The position numbers and the translations under genes were made by a program. Source: Myxococcales bacterium (GTDB lineage Bacteria > Myxococcota > UBA727 > VGSZ01). From it: a stretch of DNA of 64,000 nucleotides. Each line of letters begins with the position of its first letter. Within the stretch, counting starts at the first letter, position 1. The stretch is taken from NCBI GenBank assembly GCA_023248635.1, contig JAHFED010000015.1, forward strand, positions 25,177-89,176, read 5' to 3'. Shown here in pieces: positions 6,566 through 22,373 of the stretch. The notes beneath the pieces were generated by a model. The model did not search any database, had not been told where the DNA came from, and was given only the letters and a program-made list of their open reading frames with translations.

Positions 6566-7021
6566 ATGTTCATCGTCGATCTTATCTGCGGTGCTGGCCA
6601 CCTCTTTGAGGGCTGGTACGACAACAAAGACGCCTTCGACGACGCTCGTGAGGCAGCAGCTCTCAGTTGTCCGCTTTGCAGCGACGCCAACGTCGAACAG
6701 CGCCCCAGTTTCCGCGGCATCGTCCGCCGCGCGCCCGCCCCGAAGCGCCCTGCAGACACGCCCAGCGCCGTGTCAGCGACGCCGACGCCGACGCCGTTGT
6801 CCCTGGAGCTGCAACGGAAACTGTCGGCGCTGCTGAAGCTGGTGAAAGCCCACACCCAAGACGCCGGCGACGCCTTCGCCACCCGCGCCCTCGCCATGCA
6901 CAAGGGCGACGCGGAGCCTGTCCCCATCCACGGCACCTCGACGCCGGAGGAGCAGCAGACCTTGCGCGACGAAGGTGTGCCCTTCGGGCTCATCCCGGTG
7001 CCCGACATCGATCAGAACTGA
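6566..7021 (+). CDS. DUF1178-family zinc-ribbon protein
   Basis: It starts MFIVDLICGAGHLFEGWY... with a CxxC pair (CPLC), which is typical of DUF1178. The upstream part of the six-frame ORF (6272-6565) is not coding. Confidence 0.6.
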   Translation: MFIVDLICGAGHLFEGWYDNKDAFDDAREAAALSCPLCSDANVEQRPSFRGIVRRAPAPKRPADTPSAVSATPTPTPLSLELQRKLSALLKLVKAHTQDAGDAFATRALAMHKGDAEPVPIHGTSTPEEQQTLRDEGVPFGLIPVPDIDQN

Positions 7022-7056: not shown

Positions 7057-8514
7057 TCAGCTGCAGAGTTGCTCGTAGAGCTCGACGTAGCGGCCCACGC
7101 GGTGCTTCCATCCCAATGGCAGACCCATGCCGTTGCGCTGGATGGTGCGCCAACGCGCGCGATCGGCGCCCGTGCCGCTGCCCCAGACCTCGAGCGCGCG
7201 GCGCAGCGCCCAGCTCAGGCCAGCGTCGTCGAAGTGCTCAAAGACGAAGCCCGTGCCCTGCTGGGTCTTGGCGTCGAAATTCCACACGGTGTCGGCGAGG
7301 CCACCGGTCTTGTGCACCACCGGCACCGTGCCGTAGCGCAAGCTGTACATCTGGTTGAGACCGCAGGGCTCGTAGCGCGAGGGCATCAAGAACAAGTCGG
7401 CGCCGGCTTCGATGAGATGGGCGCGAGCCTCGTTGAAGGCCGAGTCGTAAGCGACCTTGTGGGGGAAGGCCATCGCGAGGGTGCGAAAGAACTCCTCGTA
7501 AGCAGGCTCGCCTTTGCCGAGGACAACGAGCTGGCAGCGCTGGTGCCGCAAGAGCGAGGGCAACACGCGCACGCAGAGGTCGAGGCCCTTTTGCCAGACC
7601 AAGCGCGACACCAATCCAAAGACGGGAACCTCGGGCCGGTAGGGCAGGCGCACCGACGCCATCAGCGCTTGCTTGCACACCTCTTTGCCGTCGAGGTCGT
7701 CGGCGGAGAAGGCCTGGGGGATGTGATGGTCGGCGGCGGGGTTCCACTCGTTTTCGTCGATGCCGTTGAGGATGCCCGTCAACACATCCCGGCGCGCGCG
7801 CAGCACGGGATCGAGGCGCAGTCCCTGCTCGGGGGTCTGGATTTCTTTGGCGTAGGTGGGGCTGACGGTGGTGATGGCGTCGGCGTGCAGCAGCCCCGTC
7901 AGCAGATAGCCGAGGCGGCCCGCGCGCAGCTCGTCTTGGTGAAAGAGATGGGCCGAATCCCCCAGGCCAGTCTCAGGCAACACCTCGGCCGGGAAGGTCC
8001 CCTGGTGTCCCAGGTTGTGCAGCGTGATCACGGTCTTGGTGCGCGCGAACAAGCGATCCCAGGCGAAGCGCGTCTTCAGCAGCAGCGGCACCAGCGCCGT
8101 CTGCCAATCGTTGACGTGCAGGATGTCTGGGGAAAAGCCGGTGTGCTGGCAGGCCTTGAACGCAGCCCAAGACAGAACCGCAAAGCGCAGATGTTCGTCG
8201 GGGGAAGAGCCGTAGAGCGAAGGTCGGTCAAAGAGAGGCGGACAACGCACGAAGTACACGGGCATGCGCGTGCCCGGCATAGGTGCGGTGTGCAGCGACA
8301 CGCGCACGGTGTGACGACCCAAGGACAGCGCGACGTCGTCGGCGACCTCGCTGAACACCACGCCGGGCAGCCGCACGCGCGGGTACATCGGCATCACCAC
8401 CCTGACGTCGTGACCCAAAGCACCGAGCTGACGGGGCAGGGCGGCGGAGACGTCACCGAGACCTCCGCTCTTGGCGAAGGGTGCGACTTCGGACGAGACA
8501 AAAAGCACGTTCAT
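7057..8514 (-). CDS. glgA: Glycogen synthase (ADP-glucose transglucosylase), GT5
   Basis: MNVLFVSSEVAPFAKSGGLGDV... contains the KxGGL motif. The 485-aa length and overall conservation fit GlgA. Confidence 0.95.
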   Translation of the reverse strand: MNVLFVSSEVAPFAKSGGLGDVSAALPRQLGALGHDVRVVMPMYPRVRLPGVVFSEVADDVALSLGRHTVRVSLHTAPMPGTRMPVYFVRCPPLFDRPSLYGSSPDEHLRFAVLSWAAFKACQHTGFSPDILHVNDWQTALVPLLLKTRFAWDRLFARTKTVITLHNLGHQGTFPAEVLPETGLGDSAHLFHQDELRAGRLGYLLTGLLHADAITTVSPTYAKEIQTPEQGLRLDPVLRARRDVLTGILNGIDENEWNPAADHHIPQAFSADDLDGKEVCKQALMASVRLPYRPEVPVFGLVSRLVWQKGLDLCVRVLPSLLRHQRCQLVVLGKGEPAYEEFFRTLAMAFPHKVAYDSAFNEARAHLIEAGADLFLMPSRYEPCGLNQMYSLRYGTVPVVHKTGGLADTVWNFDAKTQQGTGFVFEHFDDAGLSWALRRALEVWGSGTGADRARWRTIQRNGMGLPLGWKHRVGRYVELYEQLCS

Positions 8515-8576: not shown

Positions 8577-9047
8577 TCAGACGATCGGCATGCAGTCCAA
8601 GATGGCCTCCTCGAGCTGGTCGACGTCGACGGGCTTGTCGAAGAAGCGGGTGCGTGGAACGCGGGCGATGCGGGCCCGCAGCGCCGGGTCTCCGAAGGCC
8701 GAGATCATGATGATCGGCGTCAGCATGCCGGCGTTGCGCAGGCCGACGACGACGTTGAGCGTGTTGAAGCCCGGCATGCGCACGTCAGTGACGATGACGT
8801 CGGGGGCGCTGCCCGGTTTGGCCACCATGCTGTCGGCGAGCACCTCGAGCAGCTCGAAGCCGTTGCGCACCGTCGAGACCACGAAGCCGTCGCGCTCAAA
8901 GAGGGCAGCCAAAGAAGAGCGCAGGTCGTCGTCGTCTTCGGCGAGCAAGACCCGCGGTCGGTGGCTGGGCCATGTGTCCAGATGGAGGCAGCCTTCGTCG
9001 TCGTCGACGGGGGGATCGAGGGGGATGGACGAGTGGTGGCGTTGCAT
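8577..9047 (-). CDS. Single-domain response regulator (receiver only)
   Basis: RVLLAEDDDDLR...VIVTDVRMPGF...IIMISAFGD...KPVDVDQL is a REC domain. It is paralogous to the RECs at 12339-12773 and at the C-terminus of the sigma-54 activator. Confidence 0.8.
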   Translation of the reverse strand: MQRHHSSIPLDPPVDDDEGCLHLDTWPSHRPRVLLAEDDDDLRSSLAALFERDGFVVSTVRNGFELLEVLADSMVAKPGSAPDVIVTDVRMPGFNTLNVVVGLRNAGMLTPIIMISAFGDPALRARIARVPRTRFFDKPVDVDQLEEAILDCMPIV

Positions 9048-9204
9048 GTTGACGCTCCTGTGGTGGTGGCGTCATCGTCGACTCAAGGCCCGTGCCGCGC
9101 TCAGCCCTCTTCGGGGTCGGCGCGCTGCTGTTGACGTCGATGGAGACGCAATCGGTGCGCGCAGGCCGCCGGAGAAGCGCAACATCTGCGGATCGTGGGG
9201 CCGC

Positions 9205-9582
9205 TCACGGCAGAGGGGTTGTGGGCGCCCATTGCCGCACCAGGGCGAGGAGGTCGTCGATGTCGACGGGCTTGCGCAACCAACCAGCAGCGCCCAGCCG
9301 CGGTGCCACCTGGGCGACGTCGGCGCCGGCGGACAAGATGATGACGGGGATCGACGCCCACGGCGAGGCGCGCAGCGCCTGCAGCAGCCGCGCACCGCCC
9401 ATCACCGGCATCACCAAGTCCACGACCAGCAAGGCGGGCAGGATCGCCGTCGTCGCCAACGTCGACAGCGCCTGCTCTCCATGGGCGGCCGTGATCGTTG
9501 GGTGACCGTGCTCCTCGAGCACCCAGGCCAGGCTTTCACGGCAGTCGCTGTCGTCTTCGACGATCATCACCGACGAGGGCAT
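9205..9582 (-). CDS. Single-domain response regulator (receiver only)
   Basis: MPSSVMIVEDDSDCRESLAWVLEEHGH...LVVDLVMPVMGG...VIILSAGAD...KPVDIDDL is a REC domain. I placed the start at the internal ATG (9582). Confidence 0.7.
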   Translation of the reverse strand: MPSSVMIVEDDSDCRESLAWVLEEHGHPTITAAHGEQALSTLATTAILPALLVVDLVMPVMGGARLLQALRASPWASIPVIILSAGADVAQVAPRLGAAGWLRKPVDIDDLLALVRQWAPTTPLP

Positions 9583-9777
9583 CTCATTCCCCGTCCTCGC
9601 TGTCATCGATGCCGAGGCCCAAGCGGCAGCAGCAACGCGCGCAGACATCCGGGCCAGGACCTCGCAGGCGTCGACGTCGTCGTCGGCAACGACGGCTCGG
9701 CGACGACGCGTCTTGGTGGGGACGATGTCGAGGTGTCGACGTCGGCGCACGATCCGGGACAACAGCATCCCGGGACA

Positions 9778-12057
9778 TCACGCTGTCGATGCTTGGGGCT
9801 GGGCGGTGGTGGCGGCGGTGATCGAGCGCAGGGTCAGCACGAGGATGTTGCCGACGGCAGTGCTCCGTGGCCCGAGCACGAGGTCGCCGCCGACGGCGCG
9901 GGCGATGTCTCGCACGACGTGAAGACCGATGCCAGATCCGCTCCCCGCTCGATCGGCCAGATCGGTGTGAAACTGAAAGGGCGAGAAGATCTCGGTGCGT
10001 TCGTCGTCGGCAACAGGATCGGCGCCGTCGCCCACCAGCACGCGCAGCACGTCGCCGTCTTGTTCGGCGCGCACGGTGATGGCGCCGGCCTCGGTGTTGC
10101 GCAGCGCATAGGCCAAGAGGTTGTGCACGATCAGGTGGATCAGCCGACGATCGCTCGTCAGAGGCGACATCCCCCGCAGGTCGACGTCGACGTCGACGCC
10201 CTTGTCGTCGGCCTGGCTCTGCAACTCGGCCACCACGGCGTCGAGCTCGCCGCGCACGTCGACGGTCTGGATCTCGAGCCGGCACCGGCCGCTCTCGACG
10301 CGGGCCCACTCGATCATGGTGTCGATCAGCTTGACCAGCCGCCCGCTCGCGCGGCGCATGCGGACCAGGCCGTCGGCCGGCGAGTGCGGTGTGCTGGAGT
10401 TGATACCGGGCGCCACCGCGAACTCCTTGCTGCGCTCGAGCATGTGGAGGTGCAGCAACATGGCAGCGAGGGGCGTCTTGAGCTCGTGCGACATCATGCG
10501 CAGGAAGTTGCTCTTCACCCGGTTGGCGCGCTCGGCGGCGTCGCGCTCGATGCTGAGCTCTTGCAGCGCCACCTCGAGGTCGCTCTGGCGTTGGGCGACG
10601 TCGTTGGCGAGCTGCACCAGGTTTTGTTCGTGACGTCCAAGGGCACAGTTGAGGATCGCGCGCGCGTGGTTGGCCGCCACCAGGGCCCGCACGCGCGCCC
10701 GCACTTCGAGGTCTTGAAAGGGCTTGCGCACCACGCCTTCGACGCCGGCCTCGAGCAGGCGCACGACCTGGGCACGATCCTCGGTGGCGGTGAGCACGAG
10801 GATCGGAACGTCGGCGAGCTCGTCATGCTTGCGGAGCTCGTGAATCATCGTCTCGCCATTCATGCGCGGCATCATGACGTCGGTGACGATGAGGTCGGGC
10901 TTGAGCGCGATAGCCTTGGTGAGCCCGTCGACGCCGTCGAAGGCCGAGGCGATGTTGTAGGTGGGACCCAGGCACACCGTGATGATGCGCTGGGTCGCTC
11001 GACTGTCGTCGACGATGAGCACCAGCGGCCGTTCATCGCGCACGACATCGGCGCCGAGCTTCTCCTCCGCTTGGAGCTCCTCGGCGGTGACCTGGGCGAC
11101 GACGTCGGCGAGGCCTGTCGGCCGCGCTTCCTCCTGGGCCACGGTCAGGGCTTCCGGCGCACGGGCGGGAAAGCTCGCATCGAAGACGCAGCCGCTTCGT
11201 CCGGGTGTGCTGCGCAGCAGCAGGGTGCCGCCGTGGAGGCGGCTGTAGTCCCGCGAGGCGCCGAGGTTGAACACCCGGCCGCCGATGTGCCGCCCGGCGC
11301 TGCGATCATGGTGCACGGCACGCCCGAACAGCGCCTCGCCCTGGGCAGTTGCGATGCGCAAGCCGCTGTCGGCGACGCTGAGGGTGACGGTGTTGGCGGG
11401 TTCGTCGCGCTGCAGGGTGCAGCGAATCACGCCCGCCCGGGGCGTGTGTTTGAACGCGTTCAGCAGCAGGTTCAAGAGCACCATCTCGAATTTGGCGGGA
11501 TCGACGTCGACGAAGGCCACGTTGCCAACGTCCTGGTGGAAGGCGATGCCTCGGCGCAGCGCCAAAGAAGCGAAGCTCGCGCAGGACGCGCGTGTGAGCG
11601 CCGAGAGGTCGGTCCGGTGCCGCACGATCGCAAGCTCGTCGCCGGGGAAGGGGTTGTCGCGGTCCGCCACGCGCTCCGACAGGCACTCCAGCGATGCGAG
11701 CAGGGTGCGCAGGTCCCGCTTGGCGCGATCGCTCAGCGACGATGATTTGGTTTCGACGATGAGATGCCGCAGCAGGGGCCGCCAGGCTGCGCTCGCGACC
11801 TCAAAGGCCCCAGCCCGATCGGGAGCGTCCCGGAGGCGACCAACGATGCCTTCGACGCTGACCTGCCACCAGCCCCGCCGGGAGCCCGGCGGTCGCGCTA
11901 CGCAGGCGGCCAAGGCCACGAGCTCCTCGATGCAAGAGGCTTCCAGGGGCAGGGCCAAGTCTGAGGAGAGCACGCGCCGTCCAACGCAAGGCGCGCGCCA
12001 CCAAACCCCGCAGAAAGCGGCAGGCAGCTCGCAAGGCGGGATCGTCGTCGACTGCAA
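9778..12057 (-). CDS. Hybrid sensor histidine kinase/response regulator with two HATPase_c modules (HATPase-REC-HisKA-HATPase)
   Basis: The N-terminal half has N/G boxes (LNLLLNAFKHT, SVADSGLRI) but no obvious H-box. A REC domain follows (LVLIVDDSRATQ...LIVTDVMMPRMNG...PILVLTA). A canonical HisKA is next (RVKSNFLRMMSHELKTPL), then HATPase (HNLLAYALRNT...GSGIGLHVV). The start is uncertain. Confidence 0.8.
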   Translation of the reverse strand: MQSTTIPPCELPAAFCGVWWRAPCVGRRVLSSDLALPLEASCIEELVALAACVARPPGSRRGWWQVSVEGIVGRLRDAPDRAGAFEVASAAWRPLLRHLIVETKSSSLSDRAKRDLRTLLASLECLSERVADRDNPFPGDELAIVRHRTDLSALTRASCASFASLALRRGIAFHQDVGNVAFVDVDPAKFEMVLLNLLLNAFKHTPRAGVIRCTLQRDEPANTVTLSVADSGLRIATAQGEALFGRAVHHDRSAGRHIGGRVFNLGASRDYSRLHGGTLLLRSTPGRSGCVFDASFPARAPEALTVAQEEARPTGLADVVAQVTAEELQAEEKLGADVVRDERPLVLIVDDSRATQRIITVCLGPTYNIASAFDGVDGLTKAIALKPDLIVTDVMMPRMNGETMIHELRKHDELADVPILVLTATEDRAQVVRLLEAGVEGVVRKPFQDLEVRARVRALVAANHARAILNCALGRHEQNLVQLANDVAQRQSDLEVALQELSIERDAAERANRVKSNFLRMMSHELKTPLAAMLLHLHMLERSKEFAVAPGINSSTPHSPADGLVRMRRASGRLVKLIDTMIEWARVESGRCRLEIQTVDVRGELDAVVAELQSQADDKGVDVDVDLRGMSPLTSDRRLIHLIVHNLLAYALRNTEAGAITVRAEQDGDVLRVLVGDGADPVADDERTEIFSPFQFHTDLADRAGSGSGIGLHVVRDIARAVGGDLVLGPRSTAVGNILVLTLRSITAATTAQPQASTA

Positions 12058-12338
12058 AGCGCGGTCGTTTCGCCCGCCGGCCCTGCAAAAGCTGCAGGCG
12101 GCAGGGCGAGCGTCCCGGATCGATCGTCCTTCCGTCGCCGTGGCGCATCGGTTGCTACGGTCTTTTGCCCGGGAGCGGCTTGCAGTGTCGGAGTCCAGAC
12201 GCTGCAGGCCGCTGCTCTGGGGGTTGCTGCAAGACGCTGGCGAAGTCGGCGTCGCTGGAATGTCGTTGCTCCACCGTCGAGCTCATCCGTCGACGTTTGA
12301 CGTTCGAACGCTGCGCGTCCGCTGCGCGAGGTCCGCCC

Positions 12339-12773
12339 ATGCAAGTACAAAGCGACCCTGGCTCTGGATTCCGAATCGCGCTCGCCGAAGACGATCACGA
12401 CCTGCGCACGGGTCTGGCGGCCTTGCTCGAGGCCGATGGCCATCAGGTGGATGCACTGGCTTCGGGAGCGGTGCTCATCGAACATCTGACGGCAGCCATC
12501 CTCGACGTCGATGCCGGTCGGCCTGATGCCATCGTCACCGACGTGCGCATGCCGGGGGTGAGCGGGCTCAGCATCGTCGAAGGCCTGCGGGCCAATGGCT
12601 GGGATGCCCCCATCATCATCATCTCGGCCTTCGCCGACCAAGAGCTGCGAGAGCGCGTGAACCGCCTCGGAGGCGCCGTACTCTTCGCCAAGCCCTTCGA
12701 CCCCGATGAGCTCGGACGCACGCTGAGCCAGATGCTGCGCGGCCACCGCGCTTGCGCCGCGGGAGCCGTGTGA
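12339..12773 (+). CDS. Single-domain response regulator (receiver only)
   Basis: RIALAEDDHDLRTGLAALLEADGH...AIVTDVRMPGVSG...IIIISAFADQ...KPFDPDEL is a REC domain. I placed the start at the internal ATG 12339 (MQVQSD). Confidence 0.75.
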   Translation: MQVQSDPGSGFRIALAEDDHDLRTGLAALLEADGHQVDALASGAVLIEHLTAAILDVDAGRPDAIVTDVRMPGVSGLSIVEGLRANGWDAPIIIISAFADQELRERVNRLGGAVLFAKPFDPDELGRTLSQMLRGHRACAAGAV

Positions 12774-14542
12774 AGAGCGACGAGCTTGGCGTGGCAGCTG
12801 CGCTCCCCCGGCGCATCCTCATGGTCACCAACAATGGGGCGCATGGCGAGCTCTGCAGCCGCATCGAGGCGGCTGGCTTCTCGGCCCGTGGCGTCCGCGA
12901 CGTCGCCGACGTGCCCCAGGTCGTGGCCCAATGGCGACCCACCGTGGTGCTCGTCGACGCCAACCTCAGCGGCGGAGCTGCTCAGGTCATCGACAGCGTC
13001 CGCGCTGTACATGCGGCTGCCGTCTGCGTGCTTCTCGTCGACGCCGCCTGTGGCAGAGCCGTCACCGATGCGCTGCTCTGCAAGGCCGACACCCTCTTGC
13101 CTTGGCCCGTAGACGTCGTCGCCTTGGGGCGCTTGCTGGCACTGACGGAAGCTCCGCGCACCGAGCCGGCAGCGACGTCCCAGCTGCCGACGTCTGTGAT
13201 TGGCAGAAGCGGGGCCATGGCCGAAGTGTGGCGACGGGTAATTCTTGCCGCGCAGACGCGGGCGTCGTTGCTCATCAGCGGCGAGACGGGGGTCGGCAAG
13301 GAGGTGATCGCGCGGGCCGTGCACCGCTTCTCTCCTCGACGACGCGGACCCTTCATCGCGGTCAACTGCGCCGCGCTGCCCGAGACGCTGCTGGAGGCGG
13401 AGCTCTTTGGCTACGAGGCCGGTGCCTTCACCGGCGCGAGCCGCCGTCACAAGGGCCGCTTCGAGCTGGCCCAGGGCGGCACCCTCTTTCTCGACGAGAT
13501 CGGCGATCTGCCGCTGGTGGTGCAGGTCAAGCTGCTCCGCGTCTTGCAGGAGCGCAGCTTCGAGCGGCTCGGCGGCACCGAGTCCATCCCCGTCGACGTC
13601 CGCGTCATCTCGGCGACGCACCGTGACCTCGACGCAGCGAGCAACGCCGGCAGCTTCCGCCTCGACCTCTTCTACCGCCTCAACGTCATCGCTCTCCAAG
13701 TGCCACCGCTGCGCGAACGTCCAGAGGACGTGCTCGAGCTTTGGGACAGCTTCTTGTCCCAGCAGGCGCGAGAAGAAGATCGGAAGCCGCCGCAGACGAC
13801 GCCGGCGGCCCGCAGCCGCTTGTTGCGCCACGATTGGCCGGGCAACGTGCGCGAGCTGCAGAACGCTGCTCAACACGCGCTGACGGTGGCCACCAGTGAC
13901 GTCGTCGACGAAGACAGCCTGCCTTCAACCCTGCTGGCGCCTCGCCGCACCCACGTGATGAGCCTGGTGGGATTGACCCTCAAGGAGATCGAAAGGCTCG
14001 CCATCTTGCAGACCTACGATGCGCTGGGTTCCATCGATGCGACGGCCCAAGCGCTGGGCATCTCCGCGCGCACCATTCACTACCGTCTCCGCGACTACCG
14101 CTCGCAGACGGCGGTCGTCGTCGCCGCCCGAGCCAAGGTGCCGTCGGCGCTGCGGGTGTTGCTGGCCGAAGACGACGACGACCTGCGCGGGGCCCTGACC
14201 GAATTCCTGCGCGGAGAAGGGCTCACCGTCGTCGCCGTCGCTGATGGCGACGCGGCCTTGGCCCACCTGCACGACGTCGGCGATGCCCCGCCGGATCTCT
14301 TGGTCACTGACGTGCGCATGCCCCGCGTCAATGGCATCGAGCTGCTCGAGGGCGTGCGGGCCCGCGGTCTCGGCCTGCCCGTCATCGTGATGAGCGCCTT
14401 CGGCGACGGCGACACCCGCGACCGCGCGCTGGCTCTGGGGGCCACTTCGTTCCTCGCCAAACCCGTCGACATCAACGACTTGCAGCGGGCGATCCGCGCC
14501 CTGTCCCCCGCGGCCTGGAACGACGACAGGAGGTTGACATGA
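12770..14542 (+). CDS. Sigma-54-dependent transcriptional activator (NtrC-like) with an additional C-terminal receiver domain
   Basis: An AAA+ sigma-54 interaction domain is present (LISGETGVGKEVIARAVH...GAFTGA...GNVRELQN), followed by a Fis-type HTH. A complete second REC follows (RVLLAEDDDDLRGAL...LLVTDVRMPRVNG...VIVMSAFGDGD...KPVDINDL). The start is ambiguous; a GTG at 12770 overlaps the upstream stop, and an ATG lies at 12752. Confidence 0.85.
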   Translation: MKSDELGVAAALPRRILMVTNNGAHGELCSRIEAAGFSARGVRDVADVPQVVAQWRPTVVLVDANLSGGAAQVIDSVRAVHAAAVCVLLVDAACGRAVTDALLCKADTLLPWPVDVVALGRLLALTEAPRTEPAATSQLPTSVIGRSGAMAEVWRRVILAAQTRASLLISGETGVGKEVIARAVHRFSPRRRGPFIAVNCAALPETLLEAELFGYEAGAFTGASRRHKGRFELAQGGTLFLDEIGDLPLVVQVKLLRVLQERSFERLGGTESIPVDVRVISATHRDLDAASNAGSFRLDLFYRLNVIALQVPPLRERPEDVLELWDSFLSQQAREEDRKPPQTTPAARSRLLRHDWPGNVRELQNAAQHALTVATSDVVDEDSLPSTLLAPRRTHVMSLVGLTLKEIERLAILQTYDALGSIDATAQALGISARTIHYRLRDYRSQTAVVVAARAKVPSALRVLLAEDDDDLRGALTEFLRGEGLTVVAVADGDAALAHLHDVGDAPPDLLVTDVRMPRVNGIELLEGVRARGLGLPVIVMSAFGDGDTRDRALALGATSFLAKPVDINDLQRAIRALSPAAWNDDRRLT

Positions 14543-15465
14543 CAAAGTTCTTTGCTCTCAGGCGGGGCGGGCAATTGAAGCGACTCGCCAGCATCACTGT
14601 GCTTTTCAGCGCTGCGTCGTCGGCGAGCGAATACCTGCCATTCACCGGATATTTGCCGCCGCTCTCTTTCTCGGCCGAGGAGTATGAAAGCGGCTACAAC
14701 GACTACTGCCGCGACGACGTCGGGCACATCAACACCTATCGGTGTGTCGACAAGGTTATTCGAGAAATGACTCATCGATACGATGACTTTCATGATACCT
14801 GTGATCATCGAGGAGTGTTCGGACTAGTTTACCTGATGACGACGCAGGAATATCAGCGCGCCTCCCTCGAGCCCGGCTTCTTCCAAGATCCCGAGTTCGT
14901 GAACCACGAGGACGTGATCTTCGCCAAGCTGTACAACAGCGCCGCCGACAACTGGTCGGGGGGCAGGCTCGAGTTCGTGCCGCCGGCGTGGCGCGTGGCC
15001 TTCGAGACCTCGCGCGATCGATCCGTCAGCACCACCGGCGACATGCTCTTGGGCATCTCGGCCCATATCAACCGCGACCTGCCCATCGCGCTCGCCACCA
15101 TCGGCCTCGTCGACCCCGCCACCGGCCTCAGCCGCAAGCCAGACCACGACAAGGTCAACACCTTCTTGGCACGCGTCGAGCCCGATCCCGCCATTCAGCA
15201 GTCTTGGGACGCCGACTACTCCAGCGGTTCGTCGACGCCGCACCTGTCGCTCGCAACCATGTCTCTCATCCAGACCTGGCGCGAGGCCGCCTGGCGCTGG
15301 GCCGAGCAGCTGGTGGCCGCCCCAACTGCCGCCGAGCAGGCCATCGTTTTGATGGGCATAGAACGCTACGCCTACGAGCAGGCGATGGCCATCAAGACAG
15401 CCACTCAATACACCGTTTTAGAAAACAGCGGAGATCGCGATGTCTACTGTGCAGTCAACAACTAG
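14539..15465 (+). CDS. Hypothetical exported protein
   Basis: It overlaps the upstream stop as ATGA. It has a signal-like N-terminus and Trp/Tyr/His-rich non-repetitive sequence. Its first ~300 nt are notably lower in GC than the surroundings. Confidence 0.55.
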   Translation: MTKFFALRRGGQLKRLASITVLFSAASSASEYLPFTGYLPPLSFSAEEYESGYNDYCRDDVGHINTYRCVDKVIREMTHRYDDFHDTCDHRGVFGLVYLMTTQEYQRASLEPGFFQDPEFVNHEDVIFAKLYNSAADNWSGGRLEFVPPAWRVAFETSRDRSVSTTGDMLLGISAHINRDLPIALATIGLVDPATGLSRKPDHDKVNTFLARVEPDPAIQQSWDADYSSGSSTPHLSLATMSLIQTWREAAWRWAEQLVAAPTAAEQAIVLMGIERYAYEQAMAIKTATQYTVLENSGDRDVYCAVNN

Positions 15466-16621
15466 CAGACGTGTCCCATCGTCTGAACACAAACCTCAAC
15501 CACGGCCCAACAATGCGGACCTTGCGGCCATCGTTCGTCTCCTCCCAGATGTTGTCTTCAAATGTGAGAAGCGCGCCGACGGAAAGATCTATTGGCTGCT
15601 CAACGAAGGGAAGCTCGCCGAGGAATTCGGCGTGAGCACCGAGCAGGTGCGGGGACGATGCCTCGAGGAGATCTTTCCTCCCGACGTCGTTAAACGCATC
15701 CTGCCCGAGTTCGAGCGCAGCTTCGCCGGCGAGGCCAATGAATTCGTGAACGAGATGCACGGACGATTTTTCTACCATTTTCCACAGCCGGTGTTCGGCG
15801 ACGACGGCGAAGTCACCGCCGTGGTTGGCTTCATTTCAGAGGTCACCAGCCTGAAAGAAGCGGAGGCACAAGTGCAATCGCTGAACGCGGCATTGAAGAC
15901 CCGCGTCGACGAGCTGGCCACCGCCAATCGACAACTTCAGATCGCCAACAAGCAGCTCGAAGCATTCAGTTACTCAGTGTCTCACGATCTGCGAAACCCG
16001 CTGGGAACGATGTCGTTGCTCGTGCAGCAAATGGCGGCGCACCCGGAGCGACTCGACGGCAGAACGCAGAAAGCCGTCGCGGCCCTCGGACGGACCACCA
16101 AGCGCATGGATCAGCTCATCGACGACGTCATGCGGGTGGCCAAGGCCACCGGCGGCGAATTGAAACGTGAGGACGTCGACCTGAGCCAGCTCGCCCGCCG
16201 CGTCGTCGGGGACTTGATCCGGCGGGAGCCAGGTCGGGATGTGCAGATCAGCATCGCCGACGACGCGCACGGTGACTGCGATCTGCGTTTGACCGAAATC
16301 GTGCTGGAGAATCTGTTGGGTAATGCGGTAAAATACACCAGAAAAAACACATCAACCGCCATTTCATTTGGTCAAGTGATGATCAACGGCGAGCTGGCGT
16401 TTTTCGTCGGCGACAACGGCGTCGGCTTTGACCCAAGGGAAGCGGGGCGGCTCTTCGTTCCCTTCGAGAGACTCCACGACGAAACGGACTTCGAAGGCAC
16501 CGGCGTCGGTCTTGCCACCGTACACCGGGTCATCGACGCCCACGGCGGCAAGATTTGGGCGGAGAGTGCCCCTGGGTGCGGCGCGACTTTCTATTTTACC
16601 CTTGGGGGGCAGTCGCGATAG
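15440..16621 (+). CDS. Cytoplasmic PAS-domain sensor histidine kinase
   Basis: A PAS-like N-terminal region is followed by HisKA (FSYSVSHDLRNPLGTM) and HATPase_c (NLLGNAVKYT...DNGVGFD...GTGVGLATV...GGKIWAES). Confidence 0.85.
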   Translation: MSTVQSTTSRRVPSSEHKPQPRPNNADLAAIVRLLPDVVFKCEKRADGKIYWLLNEGKLAEEFGVSTEQVRGRCLEEIFPPDVVKRILPEFERSFAGEANEFVNEMHGRFFYHFPQPVFGDDGEVTAVVGFISEVTSLKEAEAQVQSLNAALKTRVDELATANRQLQIANKQLEAFSYSVSHDLRNPLGTMSLLVQQMAAHPERLDGRTQKAVAALGRTTKRMDQLIDDVMRVAKATGGELKREDVDLSQLARRVVGDLIRREPGRDVQISIADDAHGDCDLRLTEIVLENLLGNAVKYTRKNTSTAISFGQVMINGELAFFVGDNGVGFDPREAGRLFVPFERLHDETDFEGTGVGLATVHRVIDAHGGKIWAESAPGCGATFYFTLGGQSR

Positions 16622-17473: not shown

Positions 17474-18676
17474 TCAGCCAAAGGGTCGCAGCACGCCGGT
17501 GGCGACGGCGACGGCGACGACGGCGACGAGGCCCAGCAGGGGGCCCACCGCGAGCACTGCGGCAGGAGCAGGCCGCGGCTGTTTGCCGAAAAGAAAGAGC
17601 GCCAAGCGAACGACGGGCAATGCCGACAACGCCACCCCCACCATCAGACCCACACTGAGCCAGGGCGTCTCGCACACCCTCGCCAGGCTTTGCCGCACCG
17701 CAAAACCCAGGGTGGGCGGCAAACCGCAGGCCTGGGCCGCAGCAAACACAAGCAGACCACAGCGCCAGGGATGACGACGACCCCAGCCCGAAGCGTCCTC
17801 CCACGTCGCCACCGAGCGCGAAAACACCGGAAGGGCTGCGGCGCCGACGGCCAGCCCCAAGGAACCAAGCGCCGCCGTAAAGCTCGCTGCCACGAGGTCG
17901 ACGCCGAGGCGCGCCGCCGCCAGGGGCAAGAGAGCCTGTTGCACCACCAGCACGCCGAGCAGCCGGCGCAAGGACACCTGACCCAGGGCCACCAAAGGCA
18001 AGCCAAAGAGGCCCAGAGCAAGGGCGACGTCGACGGCTCCGTGCTGCCGGCCGACCAGTGCCCCCAAAGGGGGCCCCAGCGCCACCAGGGCCAAGGGAGC
18101 GCTCACAGCCATCGCCGCCGGCGGAGCACCCTGAAAGAGGTCGACCCGGATCCCCTGCAGCGGCGGCAGACCAAGAACCAGGGCGAGGGCCGCCAACAGA
18201 CACGCTCCGCCGGCGGAGCCCTCGACCACCAGCCCCAAGCCCGCCAACAACACCGCCATCAGCCCCAGCAGGCACGCCTTGGCAGCGGCTTCGGCTTCGG
18301 CGCTGACAGGGGTCGGCGGCGACGTCGTCGGCACCCGCATGGCCAACCCCGCGCTCGCCACCGTCCACAGCGCGATCCAGGCCAGCAGGGCGGCCGGCGA
18401 TGGGGTGAGACCCAGCTTCAAGGTTCCCGATCCGAGCACCAGCGCCAGCGCGGCCCGTTCACCGAGCAGGCCCGGCCCCTCGATGAGAGCAAACACCACC
18501 AGTGCGCCAGCAACGGCCAGCGACGTCGGCGTCAAGGCCCACAGCGCCGCAGCGCAGGCGGCGACGACGACGACGACGACCTGGGGCAGGCGTGCGACCC
18601 GCTTGCGCCCGCCAAGGCCTGCACCAGTGGCCTCCAAGCCCAGCGCGACGAGGGCGGCCAGCAGCAGCACGCCCAT
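17474..18676 (-). CDS. Proton-pumping antiporter-like membrane subunit (NuoN/MrpD-like)
   Basis: It is polytopic (>10 predicted TM helices) and Ala/Leu/Gly-rich like the complex I antiporter subunits. I placed the start at ATG 18676, which lies 2 nt after the upstream gene's stop. The N-terminal 298 aa of the six-frame ORF overlap the upstream gene and look non-coding. Confidence 0.6.
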   Translation of the reverse strand: MGVLLLAALVALGLEATGAGLGGRKRVARLPQVVVVVVAACAAALWALTPTSLAVAGALVVFALIEGPGLLGERAALALVLGSGTLKLGLTPSPAALLAWIALWTVASAGLAMRVPTTSPPTPVSAEAEAAAKACLLGLMAVLLAGLGLVVEGSAGGACLLAALALVLGLPPLQGIRVDLFQGAPPAAMAVSAPLALVALGPPLGALVGRQHGAVDVALALGLFGLPLVALGQVSLRRLLGVLVVQQALLPLAAARLGVDLVAASFTAALGSLGLAVGAAALPVFSRSVATWEDASGWGRRHPWRCGLLVFAAAQACGLPPTLGFAVRQSLARVCETPWLSVGLMVGVALSALPVVRLALFLFGKQPRPAPAAVLAVGPLLGLVAVVAVAVATGVLRPFG

Positions 18677-18678
18677 GC

Positions 18679-20049
18679 TCACGACGCCACCCGCAACACC
18701 GCGTCGTGAGCCAGCGACGCCGCCACCAAGGCCGCCAGGGGCAGGAGCAGACGAATCCCCTGCTGCAACGACACACTGACGGTCTGTTTCAAGCTCGGTC
18801 GCGGCAGGCCGCCCACCCGCAACACCAAGCCGCTGATCCCCACCGCTGCCAACAAGAGGGAGGAAGCGCAGACGCCAGCGGCGACGCCGGTCTCGGGGCC
18901 TTTTCTCAGCAGGCCGGCGAGCGCAGGCCACAGGCCGGTGGCGGTGCCGGGCCCCGGCAGTCCGCACAGCGCCCAGAGGGACATTGGCAAGAGCAGGCCC
19001 AACGAGGGCGCGACCTGCAGCAAGCCCCTGAGCTCGGTGGTGCGCCGGGTCTCGAGGCGCCGCTCCACGGCCTCGACCAGCATCAAGGCCCAAGAAGCGC
19101 TGAATCCCGTCAGCGCCGCCAAGCCCACAGCGACCGGTCCAGCACCGCAGATGGCGACGAGGGCGGTCACCGATCCCAGGGCCCCCAACAGGTGCGCCAC
19201 CATGCGGCGGAGGTCGCGCTCGGCCATCACCAGCGCTCCGCCGATGGCACAACCCACCGCCAATACGCCGGCCAGGGAGGGGATGACCCGTGCCAGAGCT
19301 TCGGCGCCGCCGCCCACCCGCTCCAGGAGGGCAACGGATCGGCACAGCAACACAGCCCCCACCGGCGCCACCATCCCGCCCATCAGACAGGCTGCTGCCA
19401 CGGGGGACTGTTCGAGGGCCGGCAAGGCCCACAGCCCGTGGGGACCCGCCGCCAACCGGACCAGCCCCGGCCCCAGCAGCGCAACCACGACCCAGGCACC
19501 CCCTCCGGTCACCGGCCCCTGCTGGACCAGCACCAAAGCTCCAAGGGCTGCGCCGTCCAACAACAGCCACAGTGCGGCTGCCCTCAAGGTGACAGAGCCG
19601 CGCTCGGGCCCCCCAAAAAGGGCCACCAAGGCAAAGAAGGGAACAGCGGCCACCATCGCAACGGCCGTGGCGGCGACGACGTCGTCGACCAGCACGGCCA
19701 CCAGCGATCCGCTCTCGGCCAGCAAGATGGCGGCGACGTAGGCCTGGAGTCCGTGGCTCACCCGCGGTGCTCCCGCGCGCAGGGCCATCGGCGTCACCCC
19801 GAGGATCACCACCGCCGCCGGCAGGGCCACGCCGGAAAAGCGCAGCGAAGCCGCAACAGGCAGGACGAGCGTGGCGCCAGGAGCCTCAAAGAGCAGGGCC
19901 AGGCCGGGCACCAGGGCCAACAGGCCGCTGACGACGCCGACGGCGCGGAGGGTCAAGCGGTCGTCGGCGGGGACCACCAGCGCGAAGGCGCCCCCCAGCA
20001 GGGGCAGCAACACCATCAGCGCGATGAGCAGGTCAGGCGCCAGGCGCAT
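18679..20049 (-). CDS. NuoM/MrpD-like antiporter subunit
   Basis: The 456-aa polytopic membrane protein has the architecture of the NADH-quinone oxidoreductase chain M / Mrp D family. Confidence 0.65.
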   Translation of the reverse strand: MRLAPDLLIALMVLLPLLGGAFALVVPADDRLTLRAVGVVSGLLALVPGLALLFEAPGATLVLPVAASLRFSGVALPAAVVILGVTPMALRAGAPRVSHGLQAYVAAILLAESGSLVAVLVDDVVAATAVAMVAAVPFFALVALFGGPERGSVTLRAAALWLLLDGAALGALVLVQQGPVTGGGAWVVVALLGPGLVRLAAGPHGLWALPALEQSPVAAACLMGGMVAPVGAVLLCRSVALLERVGGGAEALARVIPSLAGVLAVGCAIGGALVMAERDLRRMVAHLLGALGSVTALVAICGAGPVAVGLAALTGFSASWALMLVEAVERRLETRRTTELRGLLQVAPSLGLLLPMSLWALCGLPGPGTATGLWPALAGLLRKGPETGVAAGVCASSLLLAAVGISGLVLRVGGLPRPSLKQTVSVSLQQGIRLLLPLAALVAASLAHDAVLRVAS

Positions 20050-20052
20050 GTC

Positions 20053-22095: not shown

Positions 22096-22373
22096 CCGCG
22101 CAGCTCGCGCAACTCGTCGACATGGTCCGCACCCCGGCGGCGGTGAACAGCGACGGCTGCCCCCACGACGACCAGAGCAACGGCCGCGCCGGCAACCACC
22201 AACACGGCGGCGGCGGCGAGCTTGCCTTGGCTGCCCGCGGCGAGGGCCAGCCCCAAGGTGCCCAACTGCGCGCCCAGGGCCACAGCGAGGAGGGAACGCC
22301 GCAAGAGCAGCATGGCCAAGCCCAGGCCCAGCAAGAGCAGTCCGGTGCCGACGCCGACGCCGACGACGTTCAT
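22092..22373 (-). CDS. NuoK/MrpC-like small membrane subunit
   Basis: The 94-aa protein has three TM helices and an ...LLLRRSLLAVALGAQL... motif resembling NuoK/MnhC. It shows ATGA start-stop overlap with the upstream gene and GTGA overlap with the downstream gene. Confidence 0.55.
   Translation of the reverse strand: MNVVGVGVGTGLLLLGLGLAMLLLRRSLLAVALGAQLGTLGLALAAGSQGKLAAAAVLVVAGAAVALVVVGAAVAVHRRRGADHVDELRELRG

What the first reader, a model, noticed from the sequence alone, without database searches (positions are those of the whole stretch)
8577..14542. Signalling locus with three paralogous receiver domains, one fused to the C-terminus of a sigma-54 activator, and a dual-HATPase hybrid kinase
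The receiver domains at 8577-9047, 12339-12773 and the C-terminal REC of the NtrC-like activator share a distinctive signature: LAEDD(D/H)DLR ... VTDVRMPG/R ... I(I/M)ISAF(G/A)D ... KP(V/F)D. That implies recent duplication and domain shuffling. An NtrC-family enhancer-binding protein with a complete second REC after the HTH is atypical. The hybrid kinase at 9778-12057 carries a degenerate N-terminal kinase core (an ATP-lid but no H-box His), then REC, then a canonical HisKA+HATPase. Together these suggest a multi-branch phosphorelay.
Basis: partly seen in the sequence, partly recalled or inferred. Interest (0 to 1): 0.55.

Follow-up and report, generated by a model that had tools for sequence, protein, structure and literature searches.

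The report
Myxobacterial sigma-54 phosphorelay with degenerate kinase
This is a real, conserved but uncharacterised myxobacterial signalling gene cluster in which a sigma-54 transcription activator carries its working phospho-receiver at the wrong (C-terminal) end, and its partner "double kinase" has lost complementary halves of its two kinase cores.

Summary
RR1 (8577-9047), RR3 (12339-12773) and the C-terminal receiver of the sigma-54 activator (12770-14542) belong to one receiver subfamily (41-45% identity). The activator's C-terminal receiver keeps every catalytic residue in 36 of 36 relatives.

The kinase (9778-11973) is an LvrA-like tandem kinase (DHp-CA-REC-DHp-CA) with complementary decay:
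- Core 1 has no His but keeps the ATP-binding Asn and Asp.
- Core 2 keeps His496 but never has the N-box Asn, so it is not "canonical".
- Thirty-three relatives share this pattern, while about 80 other tandem kinases are intact in both cores.

The module recurs in 11 Myxococcota loci: activator, stand-alone receiver paralogues, usually this kinase transcribed divergently. The paralogues are old, not recent.

The divergent intergenic region holds the window's best sigma-54 promoter match (12141-12156). It also holds a TGCA-N5-TGCA site (12084-12096) found only twice in the window. Both recur in related loci with 43-45 nt spacing, which suggests autoregulation.

Most likely this is an autoregulated multi-component phosphorelay. 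The activator would be switched through its C-terminal receiver, and the kinase-like protein would act mainly as a receiver-gated phosphotransfer/phosphatase hub. It is a new variant of known kinds, of moderate interest.

The parts
8577..9047 (-). RR1: stand-alone receiver (156 aa) of the same subfamily as the activator's C-terminal REC
   Evidence: Pfam Response_reg 66 bits. 42-45% identical to RR3 and the activator's C-terminal REC. Groups with L88_REC153 in the tree.
9205..9582 (-).
   Evidence: Pfam Response_reg 70 bits. Gene call of 125 aa. Groups with the N-terminal REC of a REC-HK-REC protein of L084, not with the activator clade.
9778..11973 (-). Tandem kinase-like hybrid protein (731 aa): pseudo-DHp, CA1, REC, DHp2 with His496, pseudo-CA2
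   Evidence: Pfam, family alignment A2, site table, AF2 model with pLDDT 82, and 33 versus about 80 homologues.
11665..11823 (-). Module 1 DHp-like helical hairpin (residues 51-103) without a phospho-acceptor His. The His position is Ala62, in 'SAAWRPLL' versus the canonical 'SHELRTPL'.
   Evidence: Alignment with intact tandem kinases. No column with conserved His. Helices 51-75 and 82-103 in the AF2 model.
11164..11619 (-). CA1 (residues 119-270): keeps N-box Asn172 and G1 Asp202. The second G1 glycine is Arg, and the G2 box is degenerate (GGRVFNLG).
   Evidence: Residue alignment to WalK-type kinases 5c93 and 4u7n. Asn 26/27 and Asp 26/27. 32/33 each.
10663..11034 (-). Internal receiver of the kinase (residues 314-437; D365, T395, K417)
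   Evidence: Pfam 79 bits. D365 and K417 in 27/27. Forms its own clade together with the receivers of L86_RH413 and L87_RH595.
10291..10521 (-). DHp2 (residues 485-561) with a canonical H-box 'MMSHELKTP' (His496, Glu497, Thr500)
   Evidence: HisKA 50 bits. H496, E497, T500 and P501 are invariant.
9826..10272 (-). Pseudo-CA2 (residues 568-716): the N-box Asn is replaced by Tyr622, the G1 box is degenerate (DGADP), and the G2 box GSGSGIGL is intact
   Evidence: Residue alignment to GacS 7z8n. Asn position is R17/Y6/F3/H1 and the G2 glycines are invariant. Asn in 0/33.
11985..12000 (-). Weaker sigma-54-like -24/-12 element pointing toward the kinase gene (TGGCGCGCGCCTTGCG, 2 mismatches)
   Evidence: Comparable minus-strand elements lie upstream of the kinase in L082, L084 and L086. 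On its own this is not above chance.
12084..12096 (.). Candidate activator binding site TGCA-N5-TGCA, within CCTGCAAAAGCTGCAGG
   Evidence: The stricter CTGCA-N4-YTGCA occurs only here in the window, against 0.3 expected. The looser TGCA-N5-TGCA occurs twice, here and at 62996. The same motif lies in the equivalent intergenic regions of L082, L084, L086 and L091. It sits 45 nt from the -24 element at 12141.
12141..12156 (+). Sigma-54-type promoter candidate TGGCGCATCGGTTGCT, 183 nt upstream of the RR3 start codon
   Evidence: The only match with 1 mismatch or fewer in 64 kb. One-mismatch matches lie at the equivalent place in L084, L088 and L092.
12339..12773 (+). RR3: stand-alone receiver (144 aa). 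Its stop overlaps the activator's start codon (GTGA).
   Evidence: Pfam 68 bits, gene call, sequence at 12770-12773, tree.
12770..14542 (+). Sigma-54 enhancer-binding protein (590 aa): pseudo-REC, AAA+, HTH, REC
   Evidence: Pfam Sigma54_activat 235 bits and Response_reg 92 bits. At least 76 full-length relatives. Alignment A1. AF2 model with pLDDT 85.
12812..13144 (+). N-terminal pseudo-receiver (residues 21-131 of the 596-aa ORF): full (beta-alpha)5 fold, acidic pair lost (Asn-Asn), Lys replaced by Trp
   Evidence: AF2 secondary structure with pLDDT above 90. Site frequencies: the two acidic-pair positions are variable, Asp at beta3 32/36, Lys 3/36. No Pfam REC hit. Weak hit to a REC HMM built here.
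13196..13948 (+). AAA+ sigma-54 interaction domain plus lid; Walker A, GAFTGA, Walker B and the Arg finger are all intact
   Evidence: Pfam. 36/36 conservation at each site. PDB relatives NtrC1 and ZraR at E about 1e-80.
13979..14131 (+). Fis-type helix-turn-helix DNA-binding region (residues 410-460)
   Evidence: HTH_8 22.1 bits, at its cut-off of 22, and HTH_23 24.5 bits. Three helices in the AF2 model.
14153..14518 (+). C-terminal true receiver of the activator (residues 468-589; D474/D475, D520, S548, K570)
   Evidence: Pfam 92 bits. All catalytic residues 36/36.
14539..15465 (+). DUF5995 protein whose start overlaps the activator's stop. It is in the operon in this genome only.
   Evidence: Pfam DUF5995 169 bits. 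Absent from the other 10 loci.
15440..16621 (+). PAS-HisKA-HATPase kinase scored as an ordinary sensor kinase; last gene of the RR3-activator operon and a candidate ATP-dependent phosphodonor
   Evidence: Pfam PAS_4, HisKA and HATPase_c, 78 bits. The H-, N-, G1- and G2-box motifs were read by eye from the translation.

Best explanation
The locus is one copy of a conserved, Myxococcota-restricted multi-component two-component module that appears to regulate its own transcription through sigma-54.

Shown by sequence analysis:
- The output protein is an intact sigma-54 enhancer-binding ATPase. Its N-terminal receiver has decayed into a pseudo-receiver, and a fully intact receiver sits after the DNA-binding domain.
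- One to several stand-alone receivers of that same subfamily always accompany it. Here they are RR1 and RR3.
- The divergently transcribed partner descends from LvrA-type tandem kinases (DHp-CA-REC-DHp-CA). Its first core has lost the His. Its second core has lost the Mg-ATP Asn but keeps His496, with the HExxT motif.

Inferred mechanism:
- The activator is switched on by phosphorylation of Asp520 in its C-terminal receiver.
- RR1 and RR3 compete for the same phosphodonor and so act as sinks or buffers.
- The tandem protein is not a conventional autokinase. It acts mainly as a receiver-gated His496 phosphotransfer/phosphatase hub toward the activator-type receivers.
- ATP-dependent input comes from a conventional kinase. 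In this genome that would be the co-operonic PAS kinase at 15440-16621.
- Once active, the activator binds the TGCA-N5-TGCA site at 12084-12096. It then drives the sigma-54 promoter at 12141-12156, and possibly the weaker one at 11985-12000, giving positive autoregulation.
For: Activator:
- Walker A Lys, GAFTGA, Walker B and the Arg finger are 36/36. The C-terminal REC DD, D, S/T and K residues are 36/36. In the N-terminal REC-fold domain the two acidic-pair positions are variable and Lys is present in 3/36.

Receiver paralogy and co-occurrence:
- One clade holds all activator C-terminal RECs and most of the neighbouring stand-alone RECs.
- The signature is also seen, by eye, in most receivers of four further loci; one there (L92_REC147) lacks it.
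- A stand-alone receiver lies in 10 of 11 loci.

Kinase:
- No His in module 1.
- CA1 Asn and Asp 26/27 each. CA2 Asn 0/27, with G2 glycines 27/27. H496, E497, T500, D365 and K417 27/27.
- The dichotomy is clean: 33 degenerate proteins versus about 80 intact tandem kinases, with no full-length intermediate.
- Orthologues with no competent ATPase domain at all still keep the H-box: L86_RH413 and L85_HK590.
- The G2 box of CA1 is degenerate: Gly 20, 12 and 7 of 27.
- Other kinase genes whose HisKA and HATPase_c pass Pfam lie in most loci.
- The long helix 421-519 linking REC to DHp2 and the best structural match to the Rec-controlled kinase LvrB, 8vc9, fit receiver gating.

Cis elements:
- The only sigma-54 match with 1 mismatch or fewer in 64 kb lies in the divergent region, facing RR3.
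- One-mismatch matches lie at the same place in L084, L088 and twice in L092. Using the chance rate and my estimate of about 2 kb of relevant single-strand sequence, about 0.03 would be expected against 5 observed.
- The strict form of the site is unique in the window. It recurs in the intergenic regions of L082, L084, L086 and L091. In four loci it lies 43-45 nt from the -24 element.

Operon structure: overlapping stop and start codons link RR3, the activator, DUF5995 and the PAS kinase.
Against: - No experiment exists for any member; every functional step is inferred.
- CA1 keeps Asn and Asp in about 97% of a subfamily that has diverged to 34% identity. That argues it still binds ATP, which fits the rival split-kinase model as well or better.
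- L87_RH595, an orthologue without module 1, has a canonical ATPase domain. This suggests one working ATPase domain per protein is sometimes needed.
- The PAS kinase and DUF5995 are not conserved partners. They occur in this genome only.
- Two related loci have no kinase gene beside the activator: L088 has none within the 8 kb fetched, and in L093 the kinase genes lie downstream, convergent with the activator.
- Sigma-54 pattern matches as a class are not enriched in the window: 21 found against 29 expected at 2 mismatches or fewer.
- The promoter element pointing at the kinase ends only about 12 nt from the called start codon.
- The binding site is assigned to this activator only by conserved position, not by any binding data.
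- How a receiver placed after the HTH would control AAA+ assembly is unknown.
Confidence: 0.5

Rival explanations
1. Split-function autokinase. CA1, the only ATPase domain with an intact Asn and Asp, binds ATP and phosphorylates His496 of DHp2, in cis or across the dimer. The His-less DHp1 serves only as a dimerisation scaffold, as the P3 and P4 domains do in CheA, and CA2 is structural. The two cores of an LvrA-like ancestor would then have sub-functionalised into a single kinase. It would feed its own REC and the activator-type receivers.
For: - CA1 Asn172 and Asp202 are kept in 26/27 and 32/33, with a fully canonical N-box context NAFK(H/Y)TP.
- CA2 never has the Asn, yet His496 and Glu497 are invariant.
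- Loss of His in core 1 and of Asn in core 2 are perfectly coupled, in 33 of 33 proteins against 0 of about 80.
- The orthologue that lacks module 1 (L87_RH595) has a canonical ATPase domain.
Against: - The G2 box of CA1 is poorly conserved. In this window's protein the second G1 glycine is Arg and G2 reads GGRVFNLG.
- CA1 is tethered to DHp1, more than 200 residues and one REC domain away from DHp2.
- Orthologues L86_RH413 and L85_HK590 have no competent ATPase domain yet keep the H-box.
- The coupled loss is probably one ancestral event, so it counts as a single observation.
Confidence: 0.3
2. Conventional Rec-controlled hybrid kinase. CA2 still catalyses autophosphorylation of His496 despite lacking the N-box Asn. 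The whole N-terminal pseudo-kinase is only an input or dimerisation domain. It might be a DivL-like sensor of a phosphorylated single-domain receiver such as RR1, RR2 or RR3.
For: - The G2 box of CA2 is invariant and its G1 Asp is present in 20/27.
- The domain order and the long linking helix match LvrB-type kinases.
- The DivL and RetS structures are among the matches for both cores.
Against: - The Asn position is R, Y, F or H in 33/33.
- In EnvZ-type kinases this Asn is required for Mg-ATP binding and kinase activity (from my own knowledge of EnvZ N347 mutants, not checked here).
- The G1 box is lost altogether in the nearest relatives, P0122-P0127.
Confidence: 0.1
3. The C-terminal receiver is not the on-switch of the activator. 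The activator would be constitutive, or controlled through its pseudo-receiver by protein partners or a ligand, as in FleQ. The C-terminal REC, like RR1 and RR3, would be a phosphate sink, or would modulate DNA binding only.
For: - The pseudo-receiver occupies the position that controls AAA+ assembly in NtrC1- and DctD-type activators, and it keeps the beta3 Asp in 32/36.
- Pseudo-receivers are known to act by dimerisation or by ligand binding (PMC12632262).
- A disordered linker, residues 455-465, separates the C-terminal REC from the HTH.
Against: - Every catalytic residue of the C-terminal REC is invariant, and so is the aromatic switch position F/Y550. That indicates selection for a working phospho-switch fused to this protein.
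- The pseudo-receiver is the least conserved part of the protein.
Confidence: 0.1

Closest known systems
LvrA of pathogenic Leptospira: hybrid kinase with the order PAS-DHp-CA-REC-DHp-CA (PMC5863495)
   Same: The order of two kinase cores separated by a receiver is the same, and both are cytoplasmic. LvrA is the best NCBIfam match for the window's kinase, at 244 bits. Intact relatives with this architecture are common in cultured myxobacteria such as Minicystis rosea, Myxococcus stipitatus, Archangium and Corallococcus.
   Different: LvrA has a His in both H-boxes (H218 and H616). Here core 1 has no His and core 2 has no N-box Asn. The score is far below the family cut-off of 1200. There is no PAS or other recognisable sensor domain.
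Rec-controlled histidine kinases: LvrB (PMC13269768) and NmpS of the M. xanthus NmpRSTU system (PMC11841059)
   Same: REC, then a long helix, then DHp-CA, as in residues 314-716. LvrB (8vc9) is the top structural match. NmpRSTU is also a multi-component system with an upstream kinase, a receiver-only probable phosphate sink (NmpT), a REC-HisKA-CA hybrid and an NtrC-like output.
   Different: In LvrB and NmpS the ATPase domain is functional and autokinase activity has been demonstrated. NmpR has the usual N-terminal receiver. Here the ATPase domain lacks the Asn, an extra pseudo-kinase precedes the REC, and the activator's receiver is C-terminal.
NtrC/NtrC1/ZraR-type sigma-54 enhancer-binding response regulators
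   Same: The AAA+ domain with GAFTGA, lid and Fis-type HTH is present. The closest solved structures are NtrC1 and ZraR, at E about 1e-80.
   Different: Those proteins are controlled by a phosphorylatable N-terminal receiver. Here that domain is a pseudo-receiver and the intact receiver follows the HTH. No NCBIfam equivalog reaches its cut-off.
FleQ: sigma-54 activator with an N-terminal pseudo-receiver (discussed in PMC12632262)
   Same: An N-terminal REC-fold domain without phospho-acceptor chemistry sits in front of the AAA+ domain.
   Different: FleQ has no second receiver and is controlled by FleN and c-di-GMP. The c-di-GMP-binding residues were not examined here.
DivL (His-less pseudo-kinase, PMC4211667), RetS, and ChpT/Spo0B-type phosphotransferases
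   Same: Core 1 is a DHp-CA without the phospho-acceptor His, like DivL. Core 2 is a DHp with His plus an ATPase-like domain lacking a key ATP-binding residue, like ChpT or Spo0B (that comparison is from my own knowledge). The DivL and RetS structures are among the matches.
   Different: Here both kinds of degenerate core are fused in one polypeptide around a receiver. DivL has Tyr at the His position, whereas here it is Ala or variable. CA2 keeps an intact G2 box, unlike ChpT and Spo0B.

Membership tests
Bacterial enhancer-binding protein (sigma-54 activator, NtrC family) | AAA+ Sigma54_activat domain above the curated cut-off | tested here: met
   PF00158 at 234.7 bits against a cut-off of 20.2.
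Bacterial enhancer-binding protein (sigma-54 activator, NtrC family) | GAFTGA sigma-54 contact loop, Walker A Lys, Walker B Asp-Glu, Arg finger | tested here: met
   All are present in the window protein and in 36/36 relatives.
Bacterial enhancer-binding protein (sigma-54 activator, NtrC family) | C-terminal Fis-type HTH | tested here: met
   HTH_8 at 22.1 bits (cut-off 22) and HTH_23 at 24.5 bits, residues 410-450. Three helices in the AF2 model. It is followed by a further domain, so it is not C-terminal in the strict sense.
Bacterial enhancer-binding protein (sigma-54 activator, NtrC family) | Phosphorylatable N-terminal receiver (NtrC subgroup) | tested here: not met
   The REC fold is predicted. 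However, the acidic pair is Asn-Asn, the Thr/Ser position is lost and Lys is replaced by Trp. Across the family the acidic-pair positions are variable and Lys is present in 3/36. No Pfam REC hit.
Bacterial enhancer-binding protein (sigma-54 activator, NtrC family) | Acts at a -24/-12 sigma-54 promoter from an upstream binding site | tested here: inconclusive
   The promoter candidate at 12141-12156 and the TGCA-N5-TGCA site are conserved in position across loci. There are no binding or transcription data.
Two-component receiver domain (activator C-terminal REC, RR1, RR3) | Acidic pair, phospho-acceptor Asp, Thr/Ser and Lys | tested here: met
   All are present in RR1, RR3 and the activator's C-terminal REC. 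36/36 in the activator family.
LvrA-type tandem hybrid kinase (DHp-CA-REC-DHp-CA) | Domain order of two kinase cores flanking one receiver | tested here: met
   Pfam, AF2 model, alignment with intact tandem kinases.
LvrA-type tandem hybrid kinase (DHp-CA-REC-DHp-CA) | Phospho-acceptor His in both H-boxes | tested here: not met
   His496 is present in core 2. Core 1 has Ala62 at the His position, and no His is conserved anywhere in the hairpin.
LvrA-type tandem hybrid kinase (DHp-CA-REC-DHp-CA) | Complete N, G1 and G2 boxes in both ATPase domains | tested here: not met
   CA1 has Asn and Asp, but its G1 and G2 glycines are degenerate. In CA2 the Asn is replaced by Tyr and G1 is degenerate, while G2 is intact. 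NCBIfam LvrA scores 244 bits against a cut-off of 1200.
Rec-controlled histidine kinase (LvrB/NmpS type) | REC joined by a long helix to DHp-CA, with His | tested here: met
   REC 314-437, helix 421-519, DHp2 with His496. Top Foldseek match is LvrB 8vc9.
Rec-controlled histidine kinase (LvrB/NmpS type) | ATP-dependent autophosphorylation by the adjoining ATPase domain | not testable with these tools
   The sequence argues against it, since the N-box Asn is absent in 33/33. A biochemical assay is needed.
ChpT/Spo0B-type histidine phosphotransferase | DHp with His plus an ATPase-like domain that cannot bind ATP, shuttling phosphate between receivers | tested here: inconclusive
   The His and the HExxT motif are invariant and the CA2 Asn is lost. 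However, the G2 box is intact and the module is fused to other domains rather than free-standing. Transfer activity cannot be tested here.
DivL-type pseudo-kinase | DHp-CA lacking the phospho-acceptor His and used to sense a phosphorylated receiver | tested here: inconclusive
   Absence of the His is shown. Binding of a phosphorylated receiver cannot be tested here.

The most novel reading that the evidence does not exclude
An LvrA-like tandem kinase has sub-functionalised into a single 'inside-out' kinase. The N-terminal ATPase domain, attached to a His-less dimerisation hairpin, phosphorylates the His of the C-terminal DHp across an intervening receiver. This would be a CheA-like division of labour that arose by complementary degeneration. 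The kinase would feed a class of sigma-54 activators whose AAA+ ring is controlled from a receiver placed after the DNA-binding domain, with stand-alone paralogues of that receiver titrating the signal.
Probability: 0.25. Interest if true: 0.7.

Novelty: new variant of a known kind. Interest (0 to 1): 0.48.

Why it matters
Sigma-54 activators are textbook examples of control by an N-terminal regulatory domain. Here a whole family, at least 76 protein clusters and all of the named ones from Myxococcota, has retired that domain and placed an intact phospho-switch after the DNA-binding domain. That would require a different way of coupling phosphorylation to AAA+ ring assembly.

The partner protein is a natural experiment in kinase evolution. 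Two complete kinase cores were reduced to complementary halves, and that state has been kept over deep divergence. It offers a tractable test of two questions. Can an ATPase domain serve a distant DHp? And how do histidine kinases turn into phosphotransferases or pseudo-kinases?

The conserved promoter and binding-site pair gives an immediate handle for reporter assays. None of this overturns known principles. Domain reshuffling is common in myxobacterial signalling, so the interest is moderate.

Tried and rejected
1. The scan of genome contigs with the activator alignment chose generic AAA+ motifs. It returned 80 ordinary NtrC-type loci (L001-L080) and no orthologues.

2. I first placed the lost His of core 1 at Arg86 ('KRDLRT'), from a non-significant local phmmer alignment (domain E about 1e4). 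The full-length alignment with intact tandem kinases and the AF2 helices show that this segment is helix 2 of the hairpin. The His position is Ala62. Neither position holds a His in any family member.

3. 'Recent duplication' is rejected on the receiver tree.

4. A pseudogene or decaying cluster is rejected. All ORFs are intact, they are conserved at 34-56% identity across many genomes, and their catalytic residues are invariant.

5. I looked for a sigma-54 promoter or the TGCA-N5-TGCA site upstream of the neighbouring Mrp-like antiporter cluster and found none.

6. Four literature searches found no description of a sigma-54 activator with a C-terminal receiver. The library does not cover most subscription journals, so this is absence of evidence only.

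7. Foldseek on the whole kinase model returned ordinary kinase cores. Beyond LvrB it added nothing.

Full report
**What is there.**
- The window has about 67% G+C.
- The minus strand carries glgA (7057-8514), then RR1 (8577-9047), RR2 (9205-9582) and a 731-aa kinase-like protein (9778-11973).
- The plus strand carries, divergently, RR3 (12339-12773), a 590-aa sigma-54 activator (12770-14542), a DUF5995 protein (14539-15465) and a PAS kinase (15440-16621).
- The four plus-strand genes have overlapping stop and start codons. RR3 and the activator share GTGA at 12770-12773. They therefore form one operon.
- The exact proteins occur on a metagenomic contig (ENA ERZ27276474, also in NCBI).

**Checking the observation.**
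- RR1, RR3 and the activator's C-terminal receiver are 41-45% identical to each other. They are 15-38% identical to the other receivers of the locus and to the CheY and NtrC receivers.
- In a distance tree of 30 receivers from seven loci, plus references, one clade holds all activator C-terminal receivers and most neighbouring stand-alone receivers. The kinase's internal receiver and RR2 fall elsewhere.
- Within that clade RR1 groups with the stand-alone receiver of L088 and RR3 with that of L084. The paralogues are therefore old, not recent.

**The activator.**
- A search of 5.8 billion proteins found at least 76 clusters of full-length relatives: 45-56% identity, 87-98% coverage, 560-640 aa. 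Every named one comes from Myxococcota (Paraliomyxa miuraensis, Sandaracinaceae, Archangium sp., 'Myxococcales').
- In an alignment of 36 of them, the Walker A Lys, GAFTGA, Walker B and the Arg finger are invariant. So are the C-terminal receiver's E473, D474, D475, D520, K570 and P571, with Ser/Thr at 548 and Phe/Tyr at 550.
- The first about 130 residues are the least conserved part and give no Pfam hit. AlphaFold2 (pLDDT 85) nevertheless predicts a complete five-stranded receiver fold for residues 21-131 at pLDDT above 90.
- The catalytic set of that domain is gone. The acidic pair is Asn-Asn here and variable in the family, and Lys is present in 3/36. The beta3 Asp is kept in 32/36.
- The protein is therefore pseudo-receiver, AAA+, HTH, receiver.
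- No NCBIfam equivalog reaches its cut-off. Four literature searches found no description of this arrangement.

**The kinase-like protein.**
- Its architecture, DHp-CA-REC-DHp-CA, is not new. Leptospira LvrA has it, with a His in both cores (PMC5863495), and LvrA is the best NCBIfam match, though far below cut-off.
- Intact tandem kinases are common in cultured myxobacteria.
- The degeneracy is what stands out. Aligned with intact relatives, core 1 has 'SAAWRPLL' where they have 'SHELRTPL'. No column of the hairpin has a conserved His.
- The model (pLDDT 82) shows the hairpin as helices 51-75 and 82-103, followed by CA1, the REC, a long helix 421-519, DHp2 and CA2.
- Across 27 orthologues:
  - CA1 keeps the N-box Asn (26/27) and the G1 Asp (26/27), but its G2 glycines are weak (20, 12 and 7 of 27).
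  - CA2 never has the Asn (R17, Y6, F3, H1) and has a degenerate G1, but its G2 glycines are invariant.
  - His496, Glu497 and Thr500, and the receiver's D365 and K417, are invariant.
- Classifying all 120 retrieved homologues with one kinase-core HMM gave a clean split. Thirty-three have no H-box in core 1 and no Asn in core 2. About 80 have both cores fully canonical. There is no full-length intermediate.

**Conservation of the module.** Eleven independent loci were examined.
- The degenerate tandem kinase lies divergent to the activator in six. In one of these, L092, it is split into two overlapping ORFs.
- Three loci have reduced versions:
  - L087: REC-DHp-CA with a canonical ATPase domain and no module 1.
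  - L086: REC-DHp plus a degenerate ATPase domain.
  - L085: no receiver and both ATPase domains degenerate.
- In L093 two kinase genes lie downstream of the activator, convergent with it. L088 has no kinase gene within the 8 kb fetched.
- A stand-alone receiver is present in 10 of 11 loci. Most of these carry the activator-type signature.
- Further kinase genes whose HisKA and HATPase_c pass Pfam are present in most loci. The PAS kinase and DUF5995 are specific to this genome.

**Cis elements.**
- The only match with 1 mismatch or fewer to TGGCAC-N5-TTGCW in the 64-kb window is TGGCGCATCGGTTGCT at 12141-12156. It lies on the plus strand, 183 nt upstream of RR3.
- On its own this is not significant: 1.9 such matches are expected per window.
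- However, one-mismatch matches lie at the equivalent place, just upstream of the receiver gene that precedes the activator, in L084, L088 and twice in L092. Using the chance rate and my estimate of about 2 kb of relevant single-strand sequence, about 0.03 would be expected against 5 found.
- Weaker elements (2-3 mismatches) point toward the kinase gene in the window (11985-12000), L082, L084 and L086.
- Between the two promoters lies CCTGCAAAAGCTGCAGG. The pattern CTGCA-N4-YTGCA occurs nowhere else in the window, against 0.3 expected. The looser TGCA-N5-TGCA occurs once more, at 62996.
- The motif recurs in the same intergenic region in L082, L084, L086 and L091. It also recurs next to neighbouring receiver genes in L084, L086 and L090.
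- In the window, L082, L084 and L086 the site lies 43-45 nt from the -24 element.
- I read this as the activator's binding site and as evidence for autoregulation. That reading is an inference from conserved position.

**Mechanism.**
- Shown: an intact sigma-54 ATPase; an intact C-terminal receiver; a dead N-terminal receiver; receiver paralogues that always travel with it; and a kinase-like partner whose only invariant phospho-sites are D365 and H496.
- Inferred, activator control: phosphorylation of D520 controls the activator, and RR1 and RR3 compete for the same donor. This resembles the proposed sink role of NmpT in the M. xanthus NmpRSTU system (PMC11841059).
- Inferred, role of the tandem protein: it works as a receiver-gated phosphotransfer/phosphatase hub, and ATP-dependent input comes from a conventional kinase. 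I favour this for three reasons:
  - The H-box survives in orthologues that have no competent ATPase domain (L085, L086).
  - The G1 and G2 boxes of CA1 are eroded in this very protein.
  - The HExxT motif, which I recall to be the HisKA phosphatase motif, is invariant.
- The main rival is that CA1 phosphorylates His496. It has real support: the Asn and Asp of CA1 are strongly retained, and L087 has a canonical ATPase domain where module 1 is absent. I give the rival about 0.3.
- Only biochemistry can separate the two.

**Comparison and verdict.**
- The parts belong to known kinds: NtrC-family activator, receiver domains, LvrA-type tandem kinase, Rec-controlled kinase.
- The activator fails the NtrC-subgroup feature of a phosphorylatable N-terminal receiver.
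- The kinase fails two LvrA features: a His in both cores, and complete ATPase domains.
- This is a new variant of known kinds, conserved and probably functional, in a lineage known for inventive two-component wiring.
- Interest is moderate, at 0.48.

Noticed in passing
window 9205-9582 (-): There is a fourth stand-alone receiver, RR2 (125 aa by the contig's gene call; the raw ORF runs to 9768). It has all catalytic residues but belongs to a different receiver subfamily, nearest to the N-terminal REC of a REC-HK-REC protein in L084.
   Followed up: partly
window 14539-15465 (+): A DUF5995 protein (169 bits) is translationally coupled between the activator and the PAS kinase. It is absent from the other ten related loci and its role is unknown.
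   Followed up: partly
L082 14944-16764, L088 4472-6718, L090 1860-4109: A Na+/H+ exchanger carrying a TrkA_N and/or PTS_EIIA_2 regulatory domain sits in or beside the module in three related loci. In L090 it lies 25 nt downstream of the kinase gene. In L088 it occupies the divergent position and has a sigma-54-like element (2 mismatches, 6749-6764, minus strand) 31 nt upstream. This may hint that the regulon concerns cation or pH homeostasis.
   Followed up: partly
window 17474-22825 (-): An Mrp/NADH-dehydrogenase-like membrane cluster (two Proton_antipo_M proteins, one Oxidored_q2 protein and two without a Pfam hit) lies about 0.9 kb beyond the PAS kinase. The AT skew there is very strong (0.40-0.45) and G+C is 72%. 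No sigma-54 promoter or TGCA-N5-TGCA site was found upstream of it.
   Followed up: partly
L092 2959-5210 (-): In this Myxococcota genome the tandem kinase orthologue is called as two ORFs that overlap by 13 nt: HATPase-REC (457 aa) and HisKA-HATPase (296 aa). This is either a natural split of the two modules or a frameshift.
   Followed up: no
L085 6132-7904 (-), L086 6623-7864 (-), L087 5660-7447 (-): These are reduced orthologues of the kinase. L085 lacks the internal receiver and both its ATPase domains are degenerate. L086 lacks module 1 and has an ATP-lid deletion. L087 lacks module 1 but has a canonical ATPase domain.
   Followed up: partly
window 12174-12213 and 12226-12239: Further TGCA-containing repeats lie between the promoter candidate and the RR3 start. 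One is an inverted repeat, AGCGGCTTGCAGTGTC / GACGCTGCAGGCCGCT (88% complementary). Direct copies of GCTGCAGGC/GCTGCAAGA are also present. They could be extra binding sites or a leader structure.
   Followed up: no
window 62996: This is the only other TGCA-N5-TGCA occurrence in the window. Its context was not examined.
   Followed up: no
P0154, P0159, P0171 (relatives of the kinase): Many intact tandem kinases of myxobacteria begin with an ETR1_N-like (ethylene-receptor-type) membrane domain (PF25487).
   Followed up: no
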